DNA of 48,024 bases from positions 1 to 48,024 of the forward strand of contig JBKGZD010000002.1 of assembly GCA_046545795.1 (NCBI GenBank). The letters run 5' to 3'. This DNA comes from Bacteroidales bacterium (GTDB lineage Bacteria > Bacteroidota > Bacteroidia > Bacteroidales > UBA12077). Positions 17,095 through 23,030 of the stretch are shown one piece after another. The position numbers were made by a program, and so were the translations under genes. The first letter of the stretch is position 1. Each line of letters opens with the position of its first letter. The notes beneath the pieces were generated by a model. The model saw only the letters and a list, made by a program, of their open reading frames with translations. It ran no database searches and was not told the DNA's origin.

Positions 17095-19479
17095 ATGTAC
17101 TCCATAGACAATTATAATTTCAATGGCAAGAAAGTTTTAATGAGGGTTGACTTCAATGTCCCCCTTGATGAAAATCAGAAAATAACTGATGATACAAGAA
17201 TAGTAACTGCATTGCCATCTATTCAGAAAATTTTAAGTGAAAATGGAGCGCTGATTTTACTTACACATTTAGGCAGGCCTAAAGGGAAGTATGATGAAAA
17301 GCTTTCAGTGAAGTATATTGTTCCCTATCTGTCACGTGTGTTAGAACGTGAGGTTAAATGTGTTGATGAATGCGTTGGTGATAAAGTAAAGAAAACGGTT
17401 AGCGAGCTTAAAACAGGAGAGGTTCTGATACTTGAGAATTTGCGATTTCATCCTGAAGAAAAGATGGGAGATGCAGATTTTGCCAGGCAATTAGCTGAGC
17501 TGGGCGATGTATATATCAATGATGCTTTTGGTACTGCCCACCGTGCTCATGCATCAACTTATACCATTGCAAAATATTTTTCGAAAGATAAGATGCTGGG
17601 CTATTTGGTGGAGAGTGAAATAAAGAACATTGACAGGGTCTTGAATGAGCCAGAACATCCTTTTACAGCGATTATCGGAGGGTCTAAAATTTCAACCAAA
17701 ATTCACATCATAAAAGCTTTAATTGAAAAAGTTGATAATCTTATAATTGCCGGTGGTATTGCTTATACTTTCAGTAAGGCAACAGGCGGGAAAATTGGTA
17801 ATTCAATAGTTGAGGATGAATACATGGATGTTGCCCTTGAAATTATTGACAAAGCAAAAAAATTCAAAGTAAACCTATACCTCCCAACTGACTGTATTAT
17901 TGCCGATAAATTCGAAAATGATGCAAACATAAAGCATACTGAGATAGACAAAATTCCTGATGGCTGGATGGGTTTGGATATAGGAATTAAATCTGCTAAC
18001 CAGTTTGCTAATGTTATTGAAAACTCAAAAAAAATCCTTTGGAATGGTCCCATCGGGGTTTTTGAGATGTCCAATTTTTCTATGGGAACACTGAAAATTG
18101 CTATGGCTGTTGCATCTGCTACAGACCGAGGCGCTTTTTCTTTATTGGGAGGTGGAGACAGTATTTCTGCTGTTAATAAATATGGATTAGCCAACAGAAT
18201 AGGCTTTATATCAACTGCCGGAGGAGCACTCCTGGAATATCTTGAAGGTAAAGAACTTCCAAGTTTAAGGGCAATTAGGGAGCAACTTACAATTGATAAT
18301 TATGATTTTAATGGAAAGAAAGTATTGATGAGGGTTGATTTTAACGTACCGATGGATGAGAATTATAATGTCATTGATAATACCAGGATAATAACCGCAT
18401 TACCTACAGTTAGAAAAATTTTAACAGATGGCGGGTCTATTATTTTCCTCACTCATCTGGGAAGGCCTGGTGGTGAATATGAAGAAAGTTTGTCTTTGAA
18501 ACACATTGTTCCTTATCTTTCAAGGATTCTGGATAAAGAAATTAAATTTGTTGATGATCCTATAGGTCGAAGAGCTAAATTGGCTGCAGAAAATTTACAA
18601 CCTGGAGAAATATTATTGCTTGAAAATCTTAGATTTCATAAAGAAGAGCTTGACGGTGATGAAGAGTTTGCACGTCAGCTTGCAGAGTTAGGAGATGTCT
18701 ATGTAAATAATTCTTTTGGTACGGCTCACCGGGCTCATGCATCAACATATACAATTGCAAACTATTTTCCTCATAATAAGATGCTGGGTTATCTTGTTGA
18801 AAATGAAATCAATAATATAAACCGGGTGATCAGGCGCCCGAAAAGACCTTTTACAGCTATCTTAGGAGGGTCACAGGTATCAACAAAAATTCATATCATA
18901 CGCTCTTTGCTGCAAAAAGTTGATAACCTGATTATAGCTGGTGGAATAGCTTATACTTTTGTTAAAGCAAAAGGGGGAGATGTTGGCGATTCATTAGTTG
19001 AAGATGATTACCTGGATGTTGCAAGAGAAATCCTGAATAAAGCTGAAGAAATGGATGTTCGATTGTTGTTGCCCATTGATTGTGTAGTTGCTGATGAGTT
19101 TAGCAACAATTCGAATGTAAAACATAGTGATATTAGTAAAATTGAAAAAGGCTGGAGAGGAATGGATATTGGCATCAAATCAGCAAATAAATTTGCCGAA
19201 GTGATTGAGAGTTCATCTTCTATACTTTGGAACGGGCCAATAGGGGTTTTTGAGATGTCGAACTTTTCCAGCGGAACACTTAGAATAGCATTGGCTGTTA
19301 CACGTGCTACCGATAAAGGTGCGTATTCTTTAATAAGTGGAGGCGATTCTATTTCTGCATTGAATAAATACAACCTGGCTCATAAAGTTAGTTATGTTTC
19401 AACTGCTGGTGGTGCTCTTCTAGAGTTTATTGAAGGAAAAGAGTTGCCTTCATTAAAGGCAATTAAGGAAAATATTTAA
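17095..19479 (+). CDS. pgk: Tandem-fused double phosphoglycerate kinase (two complete PGK units in one 794-aa ORF)
   Basis: Residues 1-397 and 398-794 each contain the full ordered PGK motif set. The motifs are VLMRVDFNVP, D(D/N)TRI, THLGRP, ENLRFH, FGTAHRAHAS, GGS(K/Q)xSTK, AGGIAYTF, WNGPIGVFE, GGDSIS and STAGGALLE. There is no stop codon or ATG at the junction (18285/18286). Confidence 0.9.
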   Translation: MYSIDNYNFNGKKVLMRVDFNVPLDENQKITDDTRIVTALPSIQKILSENGALILLTHLGRPKGKYDEKLSVKYIVPYLSRVLEREVKCVDECVGDKVKKTVSELKTGEVLILENLRFHPEEKMGDADFARQLAELGDVYINDAFGTAHRAHASTYTIAKYFSKDKMLGYLVESEIKNIDRVLNEPEHPFTAIIGGSKISTKIHIIKALIEKVDNLIIAGGIAYTFSKATGGKIGNSIVEDEYMDVALEIIDKAKKFKVNLYLPTDCIIADKFENDANIKHTEIDKIPDGWMGLDIGIKSANQFANVIENSKKILWNGPIGVFEMSNFSMGTLKIAMAVASATDRGAFSLLGGGDSISAVNKYGLANRIGFISTAGGALLEYLEGKELPSLRAIREQLTIDNYDFNGKKVLMRVDFNVPMDENYNVIDNTRIITALPTVRKILTDGGSIIFLTHLGRPGGEYEESLSLKHIVPYLSRILDKEIKFVDDPIGRRAKLAAENLQPGEILLLENLRFHKEELDGDEEFARQLAELGDVYVNNSFGTAHRAHASTYTIANYFPHNKMLGYLVENEINNINRVIRRPKRPFTAILGGSQVSTKIHIIRSLLQKVDNLIIAGGIAYTFVKAKGGDVGDSLVEDDYLDVAREILNKAEEMDVRLLLPIDCVVADEFSNNSNVKHSDISKIEKGWRGMDIGIKSANKFAEVIESSSSILWNGPIGVFEMSNFSSGTLRIALAVTRATDKGAYSLISGGDSISALNKYNLAHKVSYVSTAGGALLEFIEGKELPSLKAIKENI

Positions 19480-19580
19480 TTAAGGCTATTGAATTTATTG
19501 TGAAAATAATTTAATAAACCGAGTGAACATTTCGTTTAAAATTAAATTTAAACATTAGTTGATAAGAAAATATAAAAGTT

Positions 19581-20870
19581 ATGATAGAAAAATACAATTT
19601 ACCGCTAATACAAAACGCAGACCTCGACGGGAAGGTTGTTTTGGTACGTGTAGACCACAATGTTGTGAAGAAGGGTGAAATTCATGACCCTTACCGTATT
19701 GATGCCACGATTGGCACAATGTATCACATTAATGCCAAAGGAGGTAAAATAATACTTATGACTCATGTGGGACGCCCAAAGGATAAAAAGTCAGGGGAGA
19801 TTGAGATTAATGATGATTTATCCGTACAGCCTATTGTTGATTATTTACGGAATAAATTGCATATAACTCTTAAAGTGCCAGAATTTCAGCAACACGAAGG
19901 CAAGGGTTATTTAGGAATTGAAACTTCTGTAAACCATCTAATTCGTGAGTTGCGTGAAGGACAAATTGATGGGATTTATTTACCCAATACTCGTTGGTTC
20001 TATGGCGAAGAAGCAGAAGGGGAGGAAGCTGATCGATTTGCACATCAATTGGCCGGACTTGCAGATATTTTTATTAACGATGCATTTGGTTCCTGGCAGC
20101 CTCATGCTTCTACCGTGGGAGTGAATAAATACCTTCCTTCTTATGCAGGTTTTCTGATGCAGAGCGAGATAGAAAATCTTGAACGAATATATGACCCCCG
20201 AAAACCTTTTGTAGCTGTTGTAGCGGGAGCAAAATTTGATACCAAAGCAGAGCCATTGTATGCTCTTCTTGAAAAAGCAGATTATCTGCTTTTGGGAGGT
20301 GTTATTTATAACGCATACCTGGCCGCCAAATATGGTTTTGAAATAAATGGTATTACAGAAGAAGACCGTAAACTAGCTAAAAAATTTGTTGATTATACTG
20401 AGAAACATCAGAACAAGATTATTGAGCTTCCATATATTGTTGAATCTGATACCCTGGAAGGGAAATTTGAAGGACAATACAGGGAACACTATATTCATGA
20501 TCTCGAACCAGGAACAAAGTTGAATTATGTCTTGGACGTTTCGCATAAATCATTTGAAGAAGACAGGGTGCAGGAAGTATTTCATACCGCCCAGACTATT
20601 TTTGTTAATGCTGTCATGGGTTTTACTCCCCATTTTAATGATGGTACCATTGCACTCGACCAGCTTATTGATGAAAATGTTGATGCTGTAAAACTATATG
20701 GTGGTGGTGATACGATGCAGGAATTGAAACGATTGCTCCCGGGACTATATATTGTCGCACTTGATCATCCCAAGTATTACATTTTTACAGGTGGCGGAGC
20801 TGTGTTGAAAGCCATTCAGGAAGGTACAACTCTTGGACTTGAACCTATTAAAGCCCTGAAAAATTCTTAA
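19581..20870 (+). CDS. Divergent PGK-fold kinase paralog, substrate unknown
   Basis: 429-aa ORF colinear with PGK but with altered motifs. The changes are VRVDHNV (VDFNVP), DPYRID (DDTRI), THVGRP (HLGRP), PNTRW (ENLRF), FGSWQPHAS (FGTAHRAHAS) and AGAKFDTK (GGxKVSxK). Further changes are LGGVIYNAY (GGGMAxTF), VNAVMGF (WNGPxGVFE), GGGDT (conserved) and FTGGGAVLKAI (STGGGAxLE). Confidence 0.75.
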   Translation: MIEKYNLPLIQNADLDGKVVLVRVDHNVVKKGEIHDPYRIDATIGTMYHINAKGGKIILMTHVGRPKDKKSGEIEINDDLSVQPIVDYLRNKLHITLKVPEFQQHEGKGYLGIETSVNHLIRELREGQIDGIYLPNTRWFYGEEAEGEEADRFAHQLAGLADIFINDAFGSWQPHASTVGVNKYLPSYAGFLMQSEIENLERIYDPRKPFVAVVAGAKFDTKAEPLYALLEKADYLLLGGVIYNAYLAAKYGFEINGITEEDRKLAKKFVDYTEKHQNKIIELPYIVESDTLEGKFEGQYREHYIHDLEPGTKLNYVLDVSHKSFEEDRVQEVFHTAQTIFVNAVMGFTPHFNDGTIALDQLIDENVDAVKLYGGGDTMQELKRLLPGLYIVALDHPKYYIFTGGGAVLKAIQEGTTLGLEPIKALKNS

Positions 20871-20889: not shown

Positions 20890-20946
20890 AACCCTCATGT
20901 CTTCTATTTTTATCACAGAAGGAAAAAAGCATGAGGGTTTTGTACT
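20890..20946 (+). terminator. Terminator-like imperfect hairpin downstream of the PGK-like gene
   Basis: aaccctcatg (20890-20899) pairs with catgagggtt (20930-20939). An inner cttct/agaag pairing sits within the loop, and the structure is followed by a T-rich tract (tttgtactttt). The large internal loop makes this weaker than the other two terminators. Confidence 0.35.
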
Positions 20947-21081: not shown

Positions 21082-22422
21082 ATGAAAGGATTTAAAGCTT
21101 ACGACATACGCGGAATTTTTAATTCAGATTTTAATTCAGATGATGTTTACAGGTTAGGATATTTTTTGCCTGAACTTTCGCCAACCAACAAAGTTTTGGT
21201 AGGTAGAGATGTAAGAGAGAGCTCTGATGAAATTTTTGCGTCATTATTAAGAGGTTTAACAGACCGGGGTGTTGATGTCTACGATGTTGGTCTTGCTACT
21301 ACACCGATGGTTTATTATCTTACAGGGAAGTATGATTTCAAACTTTCCGTACAAATTACCGCATCACATAATCCTAAAGAATACAATGGTTTCAAAATAT
21401 CAGGGGAAAAGGTACTCCCTATTGGATTTGACAATGGTCTGAACAAACTCCGGGAGTTAGTCCATTCCGGTAATATTGTTCCGGCCGATAAAAAGGGTGC
21501 ACGTATAGATTTTAATGTAACAGATGAATACGTAAAATTTTTACGAAATTATATTCCTGGAGATTTATCAAGCCTGAAAATTGGGATCGACTGTTCAAAT
21601 GGAATGGCCGGTCTGTTTATTAAAGAGCTGCTGGGAGACCAGCCTCATTATATTAATTTACAACCTGATGGTCGCTTCCCAAATCATGAACCCAACCCAC
21701 TTGAGCCTGATAATCAGGAAGATATTAAGGCGCTGGTAAAGAAAGAACAATGTGATATCGGCGTTATTTTCGATGGAGATGGTGACAGGGTTATGTTTAT
21801 AGATGAGCATGGTGAGTTTATTTCTCCTGACCTTATCATAGCGTTTTTGGGCCACTATTTTCTTACTAATCCGGGAGAAAAAGTCTTGCAGGATATCCGT
21901 AGTTCAAAATCTGTTCAGGAGTATCTGGAAAAATTTCAGGCAAATGTTTATACCTGGAAAGTGGGCAGGGCATATGCTGCATCACGGCTAAAGGAGATTG
22001 ACGGGATTTATGGGGGAGAGCTTGCCGGGCATTATTATTTCAAAGATTTTTATTATTCAGATTCCGGAATAATGGCAGCTCTGATAGTTTTAGGAATAAC
22101 TTCAAAGTTTAAGAAACAAGGAAAGCCAATTTCCTCAATAATTGGGGATATAAAAAATTATACAAGCAGCGGGGAAATTAATTTTAAAATAGAGGAAAAA
22201 CTTGATGCTATTGAGGCTGTAAAAGATTATTATATACAGAACAATAAGCCCTTAAAGATACTGGACTTTGATGGGTACAGGCTGGAGTTTGCTGATTGGT
22301 GGTTTAATATTCGTCCGTCAAATACAGAGCCCTATCTCAGGCTGATTGTTGAGGCTAAGAATGAAGAACTTCTTAATTTAAAGGTTGAGGAAATAAAAAA
22401 ATTAATCAGACCCTATTTTTAA
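21082..22422 (+). CDS. Alpha-D-phosphohexomutase (phosphomannomutase/phosphoglucomutase type)
   Basis: 446-aa ORF. It has the catalytic phosphoserine loop TASHNPKEYNG, the Mg-binding loop FDGDGDR, the sugar loop GGELAGH and the phosphate-binding loop RPSNTEP. Confidence 0.85.
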   Translation: MKGFKAYDIRGIFNSDFNSDDVYRLGYFLPELSPTNKVLVGRDVRESSDEIFASLLRGLTDRGVDVYDVGLATTPMVYYLTGKYDFKLSVQITASHNPKEYNGFKISGEKVLPIGFDNGLNKLRELVHSGNIVPADKKGARIDFNVTDEYVKFLRNYIPGDLSSLKIGIDCSNGMAGLFIKELLGDQPHYINLQPDGRFPNHEPNPLEPDNQEDIKALVKKEQCDIGVIFDGDGDRVMFIDEHGEFISPDLIIAFLGHYFLTNPGEKVLQDIRSSKSVQEYLEKFQANVYTWKVGRAYAASRLKEIDGIYGGELAGHYYFKDFYYSDSGIMAALIVLGITSKFKKQGKPISSIIGDIKNYTSSGEINFKIEEKLDAIEAVKDYYIQNNKPLKILDFDGYRLEFADWWFNIRPSNTEPYLRLIVEAKNEELLNLKVEEIKKLIRPYF

Positions 22423-23030
22423 TGGCATTACAAAATTTTTATAAAAAGGGAGTGCTTGAAGCCGGGTGTGACGAAGCTGGCCGGGGATGTCTGGCAGGTC
22501 CTGTTTTTGCTGCTGCAGTTATGTTTCCTCCTGGCTATGCGAATCCAGACTTAAACGATTCTAAAAAATTAAAAGCAGAAAAAAGGAATGAATTAAGAAA
22601 AATTATAGAAAACGATGCAATGGCTTATGCTGTTGCAAAAGTTGATCCAGAAGAGATAGATGAGCTGAATATTTTTAAAGCCTCAATAATTGCAATGCAC
22701 AGGGCAATAGAACAACTATCTTATTTACCAGAACATTTGCTTATTGATGGGAAATATTTTTATAAGTATAAGTCTATCTCGCATACCTGCGTAGTTAAAG
22801 GAGATTCAAAATTTTTATCAATTGCAGCAGCATCAATACTGGCAAAAACTTACAGAGATGATTTTATGATGGAATTGCATGAGCAATATCCTGAGTATAA
22901 CTGGTATAAAAATAAGGGATACCCAACTTCTCAACATCGGGAGGCTATCAAATCAGAGGGTATTACCCGTTTTCACCGAAAAAGCTTCCGGCTTTTACCG
23001 GAAGCTTACCAGGCGAAATTGGATGTTTAA
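22422..23030 (+). CDS. rnhB: Ribonuclease HII
   Basis: 202-aa ORF. It has N-terminal catalytic GCDEAGRGCLAGPV (the DEAGRG motif), DSKKL and the ASILAK motif. The start overlaps the upstream stop by 1 nt (taATG). Confidence 0.9.
   Translation: MALQNFYKKGVLEAGCDEAGRGCLAGPVFAAAVMFPPGYANPDLNDSKKLKAEKRNELRKIIENDAMAYAVAKVDPEEIDELNIFKASIIAMHRAIEQLSYLPEHLLIDGKYFYKYKSISHTCVVKGDSKFLSIAAASILAKTYRDDFMMELHEQYPEYNWYKNKGYPTSQHREAIKSEGITRFHRKSFRLLPEAYQAKLDV

What the first reader, a model, noticed from the sequence alone, without database searches (positions are those of the whole stretch)
19581..20870. Third, highly divergent PGK-fold paralog immediately downstream, with a remodelled acceptor-binding patch
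The 429-aa ORF is colinear with PGK. It keeps nucleotide and phosphate-handling elements: both Lys of AGAKFDTK, GGGDT and the C-terminal TGGGA. It also keeps several residues of the basic patch: R in DPYRID, H/R in THVGRP and R in PNTRW. It loses the HR of FGTAHRAHAS, which reads FGSWQPHAS here (nt 20091-20111). It also loses the WNGPxGVFE motif (VNAVMGF here) and carries an insertion in the N-lobe (EFQQHEGKGYLGIETSVNHLIREL). That pattern is what one would expect of a kinase that still uses ATP but binds a different acidic or phosphorylated acceptor than 3-phosphoglycerate. It is co-oriented with the double PGK, 101 bp downstream with no hairpin between them, and is followed by a terminator-like hairpin. 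The three PGK-fold modules therefore probably form one transcription unit.
Basis: partly seen in the sequence, partly recalled or inferred. Interest (0 to 1): 0.7.

Follow-up and report, generated by a model that had tools for sequence, protein, structure and literature searches.

The report
Divergent, widespread phosphoglycerate kinase paralog family
This gene belongs to a previously undescribed, strongly conserved branch of the glycolytic enzyme phosphoglycerate kinase, found in many uncultured anaerobic bacteria; it keeps the catalytic core but has rebuilt part of both substrate pockets, so it probably still works in sugar metabolism with altered substrate or cofactor handling.

Summary
It is not a one-off. 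It belongs to a discrete, monophyletic subfamily (51-89% identical to each other, about 33% to canonical PGKs) found in at least 77 species-level MAGs of Bacteroidales, Cloacimonadota, Leptospirales, Desulfobacterales, Nitrospirota and others. All are annotated simply as 'phosphoglycerate kinase'.

In 76 members versus 93 canonical PGKs, the phosphoryl-transfer core and most 3-PG ligands are invariant (D23, N25, R38, H62, R65, R122, K215, K219, N336, GGGDT, TGGG). H169W, R170Q, P338V, W335V and a deletion of F342/E343 (the ribose-binding Glu) are also invariant. So both pockets are remodelled, not just the acceptor patch.

Gene neighbours are EMP/gluconeogenesis enzymes: fused PGK, PGI, class II FBA, PPi-type PFK and PMM. 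GAPDH or TPI never appear. Linkage to the fused double PGK is real but limited to some Bacteroidota clades.

The most likely reading is a specialised 3-PG/1,3-BPG phosphotransferase isozyme. A new acceptor, or a non-adenylate donor such as PPi, is not excluded. I rate it a new variant of a known kind, of moderate to high interest.

The parts
19581..20870 (+). Divergent PGK-family gene ('DIV'), 429 aa, full two-domain PGK fold
   Evidence: ORF. PF00162 at 274 bits, full length. AF2 pLDDT 92.1, pTM 0.88. Foldseek returns only PGKs, best 1php E = 3.8e-29. Under purifying selection: pN 0.07-0.16 against saturated pS of about 0.8.
20091..20105 (+). SWQPH (residues 171-175). It replaces the canonical (T)AHRAH, giving H169W, R170Q and a one-residue deletion in the 3-phosphate-binding loop
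   Evidence: W and Q in 76/76 family members; H in 92/93 and R in 90/93 canonical PGKs. Role of R170 taken from PMC7729029.
20607..20636 (+). NAVMGFTPHF (residues 343-352). It replaces WNGPxGVFExxxF: N336 is kept, G337A and P338V are substituted, and F342/E343 (the ribose-binding Glu) are deleted
   Evidence: A, V and the deletion in 76/76 family members, against G 92/93, P 82/93 and E 91/93 in canonical PGKs. The anchors N336, G340, F347 and G350-T351 make the 2-residue deletion robust to alignment choice.
20223..20246 (+). AGAKFDTK (residues 215-222). The catalytic K215 and the nucleotide-phosphate ligand K219 are retained, and a new invariant Asp appears at position 217
   Evidence: both K in 76/76; D in 71/76 against S/E/K/A in canonical PGKs.
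20700..20714 (+). GGGDT (residues 374-378), the Mg/phosphate-binding loop, retained
19776..19811 (+). Family-specific 5-residue insertion directly after H62-x-x-R65-P66 (GRP-KDKKSGEIEIN). K69, K70 and G72 are nearly invariant. They are candidates to compensate for the lost R170 (inference only)
19881..19916 (+). N-lobe insertion of about 10 residues (EFQQHEGKGYLG), predicted to form a small beta element
   Evidence: Alignment. AF2 places a strand at 108-110 with pLDDT of about 90.
19480..19580 (+). 101-bp spacer between the fused PGK and DIV, with no stable hairpin
   Evidence: z = +0.28. In orthologous loci the spacer is 27-166 bp.
20890..20939 (+). Terminator-like hairpin followed by UUUUGUACUUUU
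   Evidence: -21.3 kcal/mol, z = -3.2, 2 of 200 shuffles fold as well.
17095..19479 (+). Fused double canonical PGK (794 aa), the upstream neighbour and probable operon partner in this clade
21082..22422 (+). PMM/PGM-family phosphohexomutase, downstream beyond the hairpin. This position is conserved only in the query's close relatives

Best explanation
The gene encodes an active member of a distinct, ancient and horizontally mobile subfamily of phosphoglycerate kinase. It most likely still transfers a phosphoryl group between the C1 carboxylate of 3-phosphoglycerate (giving 1,3-bisphosphoglycerate) and a phosphate-bearing partner bound in the C-domain, and it works in the EMP/gluconeogenesis pathway alongside the canonical PGK.

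What differs from textbook PGK is the periphery of both pockets:
- One of the three arginines that clamp the 3-phosphate, and that latch the closed state, is replaced (R170Q), together with H169W.
- The loop that reads the ribose (P338, F342, E343) is shortened and has lost its carboxylate.

I infer a specialised isozyme with altered nucleotide (phosphoryl-partner) preference and/or altered domain-closure kinetics and regulation. It is not a redundant copy and not a dead one.

Shown: the fold, the retained catalytic residues, the family-wide fixed substitutions, purifying selection, the phyletic spread and the gene neighbourhoods.
Inferred: the substrate identity and the physiological role.
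For: 1. Full-length PGK fold.
2. Invariant in 76/76 members: D23 and N25 (2-OH ligands), R38, H62, R65, R122, K215, K219 and N336. The GGGDT and TGGG loops are kept in 75/76. Roles of these residues are from PMC7729029.
3. Constraint is stronger than on the canonical fused PGK in the same genomes. Amino-acid identity is 77 vs 63% (L010) and 79 vs 71% (L001). pN is 0.07-0.16 vs 0.10-0.25.
4. Operon-like neighbours in three phyla are EMP/gluconeogenesis enzymes. These are the canonical fused PGK (12 loci, gap 27-166 bp), PGI (gap 18-25 bp; equivalog NF010697 at 659 bits), a class II FBA-family gene at a 2-bp gap in FBA-DIV-PFK-PFK clusters, PFK immediately downstream in about 10-15 Nitrospirota loci, and PMM in the query's own clade.
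5. The subfamily is discrete and monophyletic: at least 51% identity inside it and about 33% to canonical PGKs. Distant members (39-45% identity) still carry SWQ and NAVMG-type motifs.
Against: - R170, a direct 3-phosphate ligand and part of the closed-state salt bridge in human PGK, is lost in every member.
- The ribose-binding Glu is deleted, so neither '3-PG' nor 'ATP' is secured by sequence.
- DIV co-occurs with a canonical PGK in the same putative operon, which argues against simple redundancy.
- DIV is never next to GAPDH or TPI (0 of 81 loci, against 5 of 5 canonical PGK loci fetched). This is unexpected for an enzyme that exchanges 1,3-BPG with GAPDH.
- No member comes from a cultured or characterised organism, so there are no biochemical data.
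- I could not determine whether any genome has DIV as its only PGK.
Confidence: 0.5

Rival explanations
1. DIV is an ATP-dependent kinase that phosphorylates the carboxylate of a different 2-hydroxy acid carrying a different anionic tail. Candidates are 3-sulfolactate, a phosphonate analogue, malate/tartrate-type diacids, or a longer phospho-aldonic acid such as 4-phosphoerythronate. The remodelled H169W/R170Q loop and the inserted KDKK loop would set the new specificity.
For: - The H169W/R170Q change plus a one-residue deletion is invariant in the 3-phosphate-binding loop, and F24H and F123W flank the site.
- It co-occurs with a canonical PGK in one putative operon.
- Two intact DIV paralogs sit in tandem in Cloacimonadota, which suggests sub-specialisation.
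- It is never linked to GAPDH or TPI.
Against: - Six of the seven classical 3-PG ligands are invariant, including both 2-OH ligands and two of the three phosphate-binding Arg.
- No neighbour in 81 loci belongs to a sulfonate, phosphonate or alternative acid pathway. The neighbours are EMP enzymes.
Confidence: 0.22
2. DIV acts on 3-PG/1,3-BPG but has given up the adenine nucleotide. It would use a non-nucleoside phosphate partner, with Pi/PPi the most attractive option (1,3-BPG + Pi -> 3-PG + PPi) and polyphosphate another. It would then feed PPi-dependent glycolytic enzymes such as PPi-PFK.
For: - The ribose-binding Glu343 and F342 are deleted, and P338V, W335V, G337A and a bulky A240Y in the base/ribose pocket are all invariant. 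Every phosphate/Mg ligand (K219, N336, D374, T375, Gly loops) is kept.
- In about 12 Nitrospirota loci the next gene is a PFK carrying GGDDT and PKTMDLD. These correspond to the Asp104/Lys124 signature that established work associates with PPi-dependent PFKs (my own knowledge).
- The hosts are anaerobes of lineages known for PPi-dependent glycolysis (my own knowledge).
- Co-expression with an ATP-forming PGK would then be non-redundant.
Against: - No gain of positive charge is evident in the C-domain to bind Pi in place of ADP. Instead a new Asp appears at 217.
- The PFKs reach no NCBIfam equivalog cut-off, so their PPi dependence is inferred from two residues only.
- PPi could not drive the gluconeogenic direction, which autotrophic or sulfate-reducing Nitrospirota need.
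- No PGK of this kind is known.
- The pocket could equally have been reshaped for another nucleotide.
Confidence: 0.12
3. DIV is a non-catalytic PGK-fold protein, either a regulatory subunit or partner of the fused PGK or a decaying duplicate.
For: It has lost two hallmark motifs and is adjacent to the fused PGK, whose own second module has lost the catalytic K215 in this clade.
Against: - All phosphoryl-transfer residues are invariant across at least 5 phyla.
- pN is far below pS, and DIV is more conserved than the canonical PGK.
- It occurs without the fused PGK in most lineages.
Confidence: 0.03

Closest known systems
Canonical bacterial phosphoglycerate kinase (EC 2.7.2.3; PF00162), e.g. 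Thermotoga maritima 1VPE and Geobacillus stearothermophilus 1PHP
   Same: It has the two-domain PGK fold (TM 0.77-0.84) and about 29-31% identity. It keeps D23, N25, R38, H62, R65, R122, K215, K219, N336, GGGDT and TGGG, and its gene context is glycolysis/gluconeogenesis.
   Different: It carries H169W, R170Q, a deletion of T167, F24H, F123W, Asp at 217, A240Y, W335V, G337A, P338V and a deletion of F342/E343. It has three family-specific insertions: after GRP, in the N-lobe, and before the C-terminal TGGG. It is never found in a gap-pgk-tpi cluster. It scores only 274 bits on PF00162, against about 490 for a canonical module.
GTP/GDP-preferring PGKs (EC 2.7.2.10: Entamoeba histolytica; dual ATP/GTP PGKs of Hungateiclostridium/Pseudoclostridium, PMC6543838)
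   Same: These show that PGKs in PPi-dependent anaerobes can have altered nucleotide preference, so they serve as a functional analogy for a 'specialised isozyme'.
   Different: As far as I know (my own knowledge, not tested here), those enzymes are otherwise canonical and keep the ribose-binding Glu and R170. DIV is a separate deep clade. No sequence comparison with them was run.
Catalytically dead PGK-like proteins of Kinetoplastea/Diplonemea (PGKL; PMC7729029)
   Same: They are divergent PGK-fold paralogs that coexist with functional PGKs.
   Different: Those have lost key catalytic and substrate-binding residues and are fused to other domains. DIV keeps every catalytic residue, stands alone, and is under strong purifying selection.
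PPi-dependent variants of normally ATP-dependent kinases (PPi-PFK; Entamoeba PPi-acetate kinase)
   Same: They are a conceptual precedent: loss or occlusion of the adenosine pocket with the phosphate-handling residues kept. DIV sits next to PFKs with the PPi-type signature.
   Different: They are unrelated folds. No PPi-dependent PGK has been described. For DIV this remains a hypothesis.

Membership tests
Phosphoglycerate kinase family (Pfam PF00162, PGK fold) | Full-length match to the PGK profile above the gathering threshold | tested here: met
   274.1 bits against a cut-off of 27; residues 10-413 on profile positions 1-377 of 379.
Phosphoglycerate kinase family (Pfam PF00162, PGK fold) | Two Rossmann-like domains joined by a hinge (3D fold) | tested here: met
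   AF2 pLDDT 92.1, pTM 0.88. The top 50 Foldseek PDB hits are all PGKs, E about 1e-25 to 1e-29, TM 0.7-0.85.
Functional PGK, EC 2.7.2.3 (3-PG + ATP <-> 1,3-BPG + ADP) | Phosphoryl-transfer residues R38, K215, K219, the D374/T375 Mg-phosphate loop and the Gly-rich helix N-termini | tested here: met
   R38, K215 and K219 are invariant in 76/76 family members, and the D374/T375 loop and Gly-rich motifs in 75/76; the query has all of them.
Functional PGK, EC 2.7.2.3 (3-PG + ATP <-> 1,3-BPG + ADP) | Complete 3-PG basic patch: H62, R65, R122 and R170 (plus H169), with D23/N25 for the 2-OH | tested here: not met
   D23, N25, H62, R65 and R122 are kept. R170 is Q and H169 is W in 76/76 members, and T167 is deleted.
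Functional PGK, EC 2.7.2.3 (3-PG + ATP <-> 1,3-BPG + ADP) | Nucleoside-binding motif WNGPxGVFE with the ribose-binding Glu343 | tested here: not met
   The motif reads VNAVMGF-TPHF. N336 and G340 are kept, P338 is V, and F342/E343 are deleted in 76/76 members.
Functional PGK, EC 2.7.2.3 (3-PG + ATP <-> 1,3-BPG + ADP) | Measured 3-PG kinase activity, or complementation of a pgk mutant | not testable with these tools
   No characterised member or cultured host was found. No literature on the subfamily was found.
Functional PGK, EC 2.7.2.3 (3-PG + ATP <-> 1,3-BPG + ADP) | Typical genomic association with gap and tpi (supportive, not defining) | tested here: not met
   0 of 81 DIV loci have GAPDH or TIM within +/-8-10 kb. 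5 of 5 canonical PGK loci do.
NCBIfam NF010569 (bifunctional PGK/TIM), the only NCBIfam model hit | Score above the curated equivalog cut-off | tested here: not met
   203 bits against a cut-off of 883. Only the PGK half aligns.
Dead PGK-like pseudoenzymes (kinetoplastid PGKL type) | Loss of catalytic or substrate-binding residues, with relaxed constraint | tested here: not met
   Catalytic residues are invariant. pN 0.07-0.16 against pS of about 0.8.

The most novel reading that the evidence does not exclude
DIV would be the founding member of a PGK class that no longer uses an adenine nucleotide. It would couple the acyl phosphate of 1,3-BPG to Pi/PPi (or to polyphosphate or another non-nucleoside phosphate acceptor). 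That would give anaerobes with PPi-dependent glycolysis (PPi-PFK, PPDK) a dedicated catabolic source of PPi.

This reading would explain four observations:
- The ribose-binding loop is deleted while every phosphate/Mg ligand is kept.
- The gene sits next to PPi-type PFK genes in Nitrospirota.
- It is co-expressed with an ATP-forming PGK in Bacteroidales.
- It spreads horizontally among anaerobic sediment and digester lineages.
Probability: 0.1. Interest if true: 0.9.

Novelty: new variant of a known kind. Interest (0 to 1): 0.58.

Why it matters
PGK is treated as one of the most uniform and universally conserved enzymes of central metabolism, and automated annotation labels every member of this subfamily simply 'phosphoglycerate kinase'. 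A discrete, strongly constrained and horizontally mobile PGK clade has lost a 3-phosphate-clamping arginine and the ribose-binding glutamate. It sits beside canonical PGK, PGI, FBA and PPi-type PFK genes in several phyla of uncultured anaerobes.

It follows that metabolic reconstructions of these lineages (Cloacimonadota, Thermodesulfovibrionia, sediment Bacteroidales, Leptospirales) may hide an uncharacterised step or cofactor choice in glycolysis or gluconeogenesis. If the donor or acceptor has changed, for example to PPi, another NTP or a new acyl-phosphate, this would bear on the unresolved question of how PPi-dependent glycolysis is energised. It would also add a new reaction to the small set of enzymes that form acyl phosphates. 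If it is merely an isozyme, it is still a natural experiment on which PGK 'invariant' residues are dispensable.

Tried and rejected
- **Artefact or pseudogene: rejected.** The ORF is intact, more than 100 homologues cover it at 99-100%, and it is under purifying selection.
- **Recent foreign insertion in this window: no support.** GC is flat at 0.33-0.40 across 15-24 kb, and the locus is syntenic in relatives.
- **Obligate partnership with the fused double PGK: rejected.** It is absent outside some Bacteroidota clades, and 4 of 4 more distant fused-PGK loci lack DIV.
- **Functional link to the downstream PMM: weak.** It is conserved only among close relatives (7 loci), and a hairpin separates the two genes.
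- **Sigma-70 promoter scan: uninformative.** It found 21 sites against 21.3 expected, and Bacteroidota promoters are not covered.
- **Search for a cultured or characterised member: none found** among 240 listed homologues or cluster names.
- **Literature searches for a described divergent, second or PPi-dependent PGK: nothing relevant**.
- **Docking or distance measurements on the AF2 model: not possible.** Coordinates are not exposed, so the proposed compensation by K69/K70 or H26 remains an inference.
- **Two apparent pocket changes (L256G, G238V): discounted.** L256G depends on a one-residue alignment shift, and V at 238 lies within canonical variation.
- **Possible eukaryotic origin of the Asn/Asp-rich far members: not supported.** The gene has a continuous ORF with no intron.
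Full report
**1. Observation**

The window carries a 794-aa fused double PGK (17095-19479, +). After a 101-bp spacer comes a 429-aa ORF at 19581-20870 (+), and after that a PMM/PGM-family gene (21082-22422). The 429-aa protein matches Pfam PGK end to end (274 bits, E = 2.4e-81), whereas the two canonical modules of the fused gene total 984 bits. Its best solved relatives are bacterial PGKs at about 30% identity (T. maritima 1VPE, 148 bits).

An AlphaFold2 model built on a 45-sequence alignment is confident (pLDDT 92.1, pTM 0.88). It retrieves only PGK structures from the PDB.

The spacer upstream has no significant structure. A 10-11 bp-stem hairpin with a U-rich tail follows the stop codon (-21.3 kcal/mol, z = -3.2).

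**2. It is a family, not an oddity**

A search of 5.8 billion proteins returns hundreds of 426-445-aa proteins that are 74-99% identical to the query. Those that carry a name come from Bacteroidales, Bacteroidota, Desulfobacterales or Desulfobulbaceae MAGs and are called just 'phosphoglycerate kinase'.

A scan of one genome per GTDB species gave at least 77 loci at 51-89% identity. The hosts are Bacteroidales, Cloacimonadota, Leptospirales/Spirochaetota, Delongbacteria, Desulfobacterales, Nitrospirota (Thermodesulfovibrionia, Dissulfurispiraceae) and Nitrospinota. Identity then drops abruptly to 33-34%, which is where canonical PGKs begin.

An exhaustive HMMER search of 1.84 billion cluster representatives shows a handful of deeper members at 39-55% identity, followed by the mass of canonical PGKs at 33-38% and at most about 180 bits. 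The deeper members still read GS(W/H)QPH(A/V)S and NAV(M/V)G. The most distant one, P0131, reads GSWQAQAS and SNHVMGF.

A neighbour-joining tree places the whole family on one long stem emerging from bacterial PGKs. Inside it there is a Nitrospirota clade, several Cloacimonadota clades and a shallow mixed clade. In the mixed clade a closed Desulfobacterales genome (CP070789.1, 80% identical to the query) nests among Bacteroidales, which indicates horizontal transfer. No cultured organism appeared among 240 listed homologues. Six literature searches found no description of such a PGK subfamily.

**3. What is kept and what is changed**

I aligned 76 family members with 93 diverse canonical PGKs and human PGK1. 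The human sequence was written from memory and used only as a numbering ruler. The motifs agree with the window's own canonical modules.

Kept in the family:
- In 76/76: D23 and N25 (2-OH ligands), R38, H62, R65, R122, K215, K219 and N336.
- In 75/76: the G372-G373-D374-T375 loop and G394-G396.

The roles of these residues are as summarised in PMC7729029.

Changed, and equally invariant within the family:
- N-domain (3-PG side): F24H, F123W, deletion of T167, H169W, R170Q.
- C-domain (nucleotide side): Asp at 217, A240Y, W335V, G337A, P338V, and a two-residue deletion removing F342 and E343.

R170 is one of the three arginines that bind the 3-phosphate and, in human PGK, part of the salt bridge that stabilises the closed state. 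E343 (residue 323 in B. stearothermophilus numbering) is the ribose 2'/3'-OH ligand. In canonical PGKs H169, R170 and E343 are present in 92, 90 and 91 of 93 sequences.

Two further apparent changes are not robust and I do not rely on them. L256G depends on a one-residue alignment shift, and V at position 238 lies within canonical variation.

Family-specific insertions lie directly after GRP66 (KDKKSGEIEIN, with near-invariant K69, K70 and G72), in the N-lobe (about 10 residues) and before the C-terminal TGGG. The lysines next to R65 could compensate for R170.

**4. Constraint**

In genome pairs that carry both genes, DIV is more conserved than the canonical fused PGK.

| Comparison | DIV | Fused PGK |
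|---|---|---|
| Amino-acid identity, L006 | 89% | 85% |
| Amino-acid identity, L001 | 79% | 71% |
| Amino-acid identity, L010 | 77% | 63% |
| pN across the pairs | 0.07-0.16 | 0.10-0.25 |

Synonymous sites are saturated (pS about 0.8). Both copies of the tandem DIV-DIV pairs in Cloacimonadota retain all catalytic residues. A decaying or non-catalytic protein is therefore very unlikely.

**5. Neighbourhoods**

I called and clustered ORFs in 81 DIV loci and annotated the recurrent neighbours.

- **Fused double PGK.** It lies immediately upstream and co-oriented (gap 27-166 bp) in 12 Bacteroidota/Delongbacteria loci. These belong to two groups with different outer flanks, so the pair itself is conserved there.
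- **PFK-family gene in Nitrospirota.** It follows DIV at 52-146 bp in about 10 loci and is present in 15. Twelve of these loci carry a PFK that reads GGDDT and PKTMDLD (in a thirteenth only GGDDT matched). These are the Asp/Lys signature associated with PPi-dependent PFKs (my own knowledge). None reaches an NCBIfam equivalog cut-off.
- **Class II FBA-family gene.** Three loci have FBA - (2-bp gap) - DIV - PFK - PFK.
- **carA-x-carB.** It precedes DIV in four loci.
- **Glucose-6-phosphate isomerase.** In another Bacteroidales group it sits 18-25 bp upstream (NF010697, 659 bits against a cut-off of 443).
- **PMM.** It is downstream only in the query's close relatives.
- **GAPDH and TIM.** They occur in 0 of 81 DIV loci but in 5 of 5 canonical PGK loci fetched in passing.
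- **Seen from the fused PGK's side.** Four more distant fused-PGK loci lack DIV. One of them (L088) sits beside a classical gap-pgk-tpi operon.

DIV therefore recurs with EMP/gluconeogenesis genes in three phyla. Its link to the fused PGK is clade-limited.

**6. Interpretation**

The chemistry-defining residues are all intact: the carboxylate and 2-OH recognition, the transferring-phosphate lysines, and the Mg/phosphate loops. The gene context is the EMP pathway. The simplest reading is that DIV still interconverts 3-PG and 1,3-BPG (confidence about 0.5).

Four things argue that it is not redundant with the canonical enzyme:
- The co-operonic canonical PGK.
- The invariant loss of R170 and H169.
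- The deletion of the ribose-binding loop.
- The tandem paralogs in Cloacimonadota.

The nucleoside pocket is altered at least as much as the basic patch, and no neighbour hints at an alternative acid pathway. I keep it as a rival at about 0.22.

The most novel reading not excluded is a non-adenylate donor/acceptor such as Pi/PPi (about 0.1). It fits the retained phosphate ligands, the lost ribose ligand and the adjacency to PPi-type PFKs. Against it, there is no obvious gain of positive charge, and PPi could not drive gluconeogenesis.

**7. Transcription unit**

The absence of a hairpin in the spacer, the hairpin after DIV, and the 27-39-bp spacers in orthologous loci are all consistent with co-transcription of the fused PGK and DIV, with PMM separate. 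This has not been shown experimentally. The sigma-70 promoter scan was at background level and does not cover Bacteroidota promoters.

**8. Verdict**

This is a real, well-defined and apparently undescribed PGK subfamily: a new variant of a known kind. Its exact reaction is unresolved. Decisive tests are a per-genome census of canonical versus DIV PGKs, enzyme assays with a panel of phosphoryl donors and 2-hydroxy acids, complementation of a pgk mutant, and a ligand-bound structure.

Noticed in passing
window 18874-18876 (residue 594 of the fused PGK, 17095-19479): The second module of the fused double PGK reads GGSQVSTK, so the catalytic Lys215 equivalent is Gln. The same K-to-Q change is present in the three closest orthologues (L006, L007, L075) but not in the other nine fused PGKs examined. 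In this clade the C-terminal module may therefore be catalytically impaired.
   Followed up: partly
L088:4001-9414; also L086, L087, L089: The fused 794-aa double PGK is widespread in Bacteroidota (more than 100 clusters at 57-99% identity) and often occurs without the divergent paralog. In L088 it lies directly upstream of a classical gap - pgk (398 aa) - tpi - secG operon. The fused enzyme may itself be an accessory PGK rather than the housekeeping one.
   Followed up: partly
L023:2610-5187, L025:8001-10588, L027:2119-4706, L028:490-3078, L056:8001-10579, L026:8001-10147: Cloacimonadota MAGs carry two divergent-family PGK genes in tandem (about 73% and about 59% identical to the query, 40-60 bp apart). 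Both have intact catalytic residues and they belong to different clades of the family tree.
   Followed up: partly
L002:10001-11293 (CP070789.1, closed 3.4-Mb Desulfobacterales genome): A family member 80% identical to the Bacteroidales query nests among Bacteroidales sequences in the tree. It sits alone, with ATP sulfurylase about 2.5 kb upstream and no glycolytic neighbours. This looks like inter-phylum horizontal transfer.
   Followed up: partly
L054:6075-11327, L058:1002-6174, L062:3119-8512: Nitrospirota loci carry a compact cluster: a class II FBA-like gene (452 aa, weak Pfam match and no NCBIfam hit), the divergent PGK, and two different PFK-family genes. One PFK has GGDDT/PKTMDLD and the other PKTIDND.
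   Followed up: partly
L090:5917-7572 (metagenome contig; protein cluster of P0126/P0398): These are distant family members (about 42% identity) with long Asn/Asp/Lys-rich low-complexity insertions. The called gene is N-terminally truncated, and the real ORF continues upstream (…ICLIRCDHNCVKEGK…) without an intron. The host is unknown and contig GC is 44%.
   Followed up: partly
window 21082-23030: The PMM/PGM-family gene (446 aa, below all NCBIfam equivalog cut-offs) is followed by an RNase HII gene whose ATG overlaps its stop codon (22422). This pairing recurs in L006 and L007.
   Followed up: no
window 17163-17322 (residues 23-76 of the fused PGK): There are weak sub-threshold matches of the PGK N-terminal region to rRNA methylase and MnmM profiles (PF06962 at 23.8 bits; NF053511 at 20 bits). 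The same faint PF06962 hit is precomputed for many fused PGK orthologues. It is probably a Rossmann-like chance similarity.
   Followed up: no
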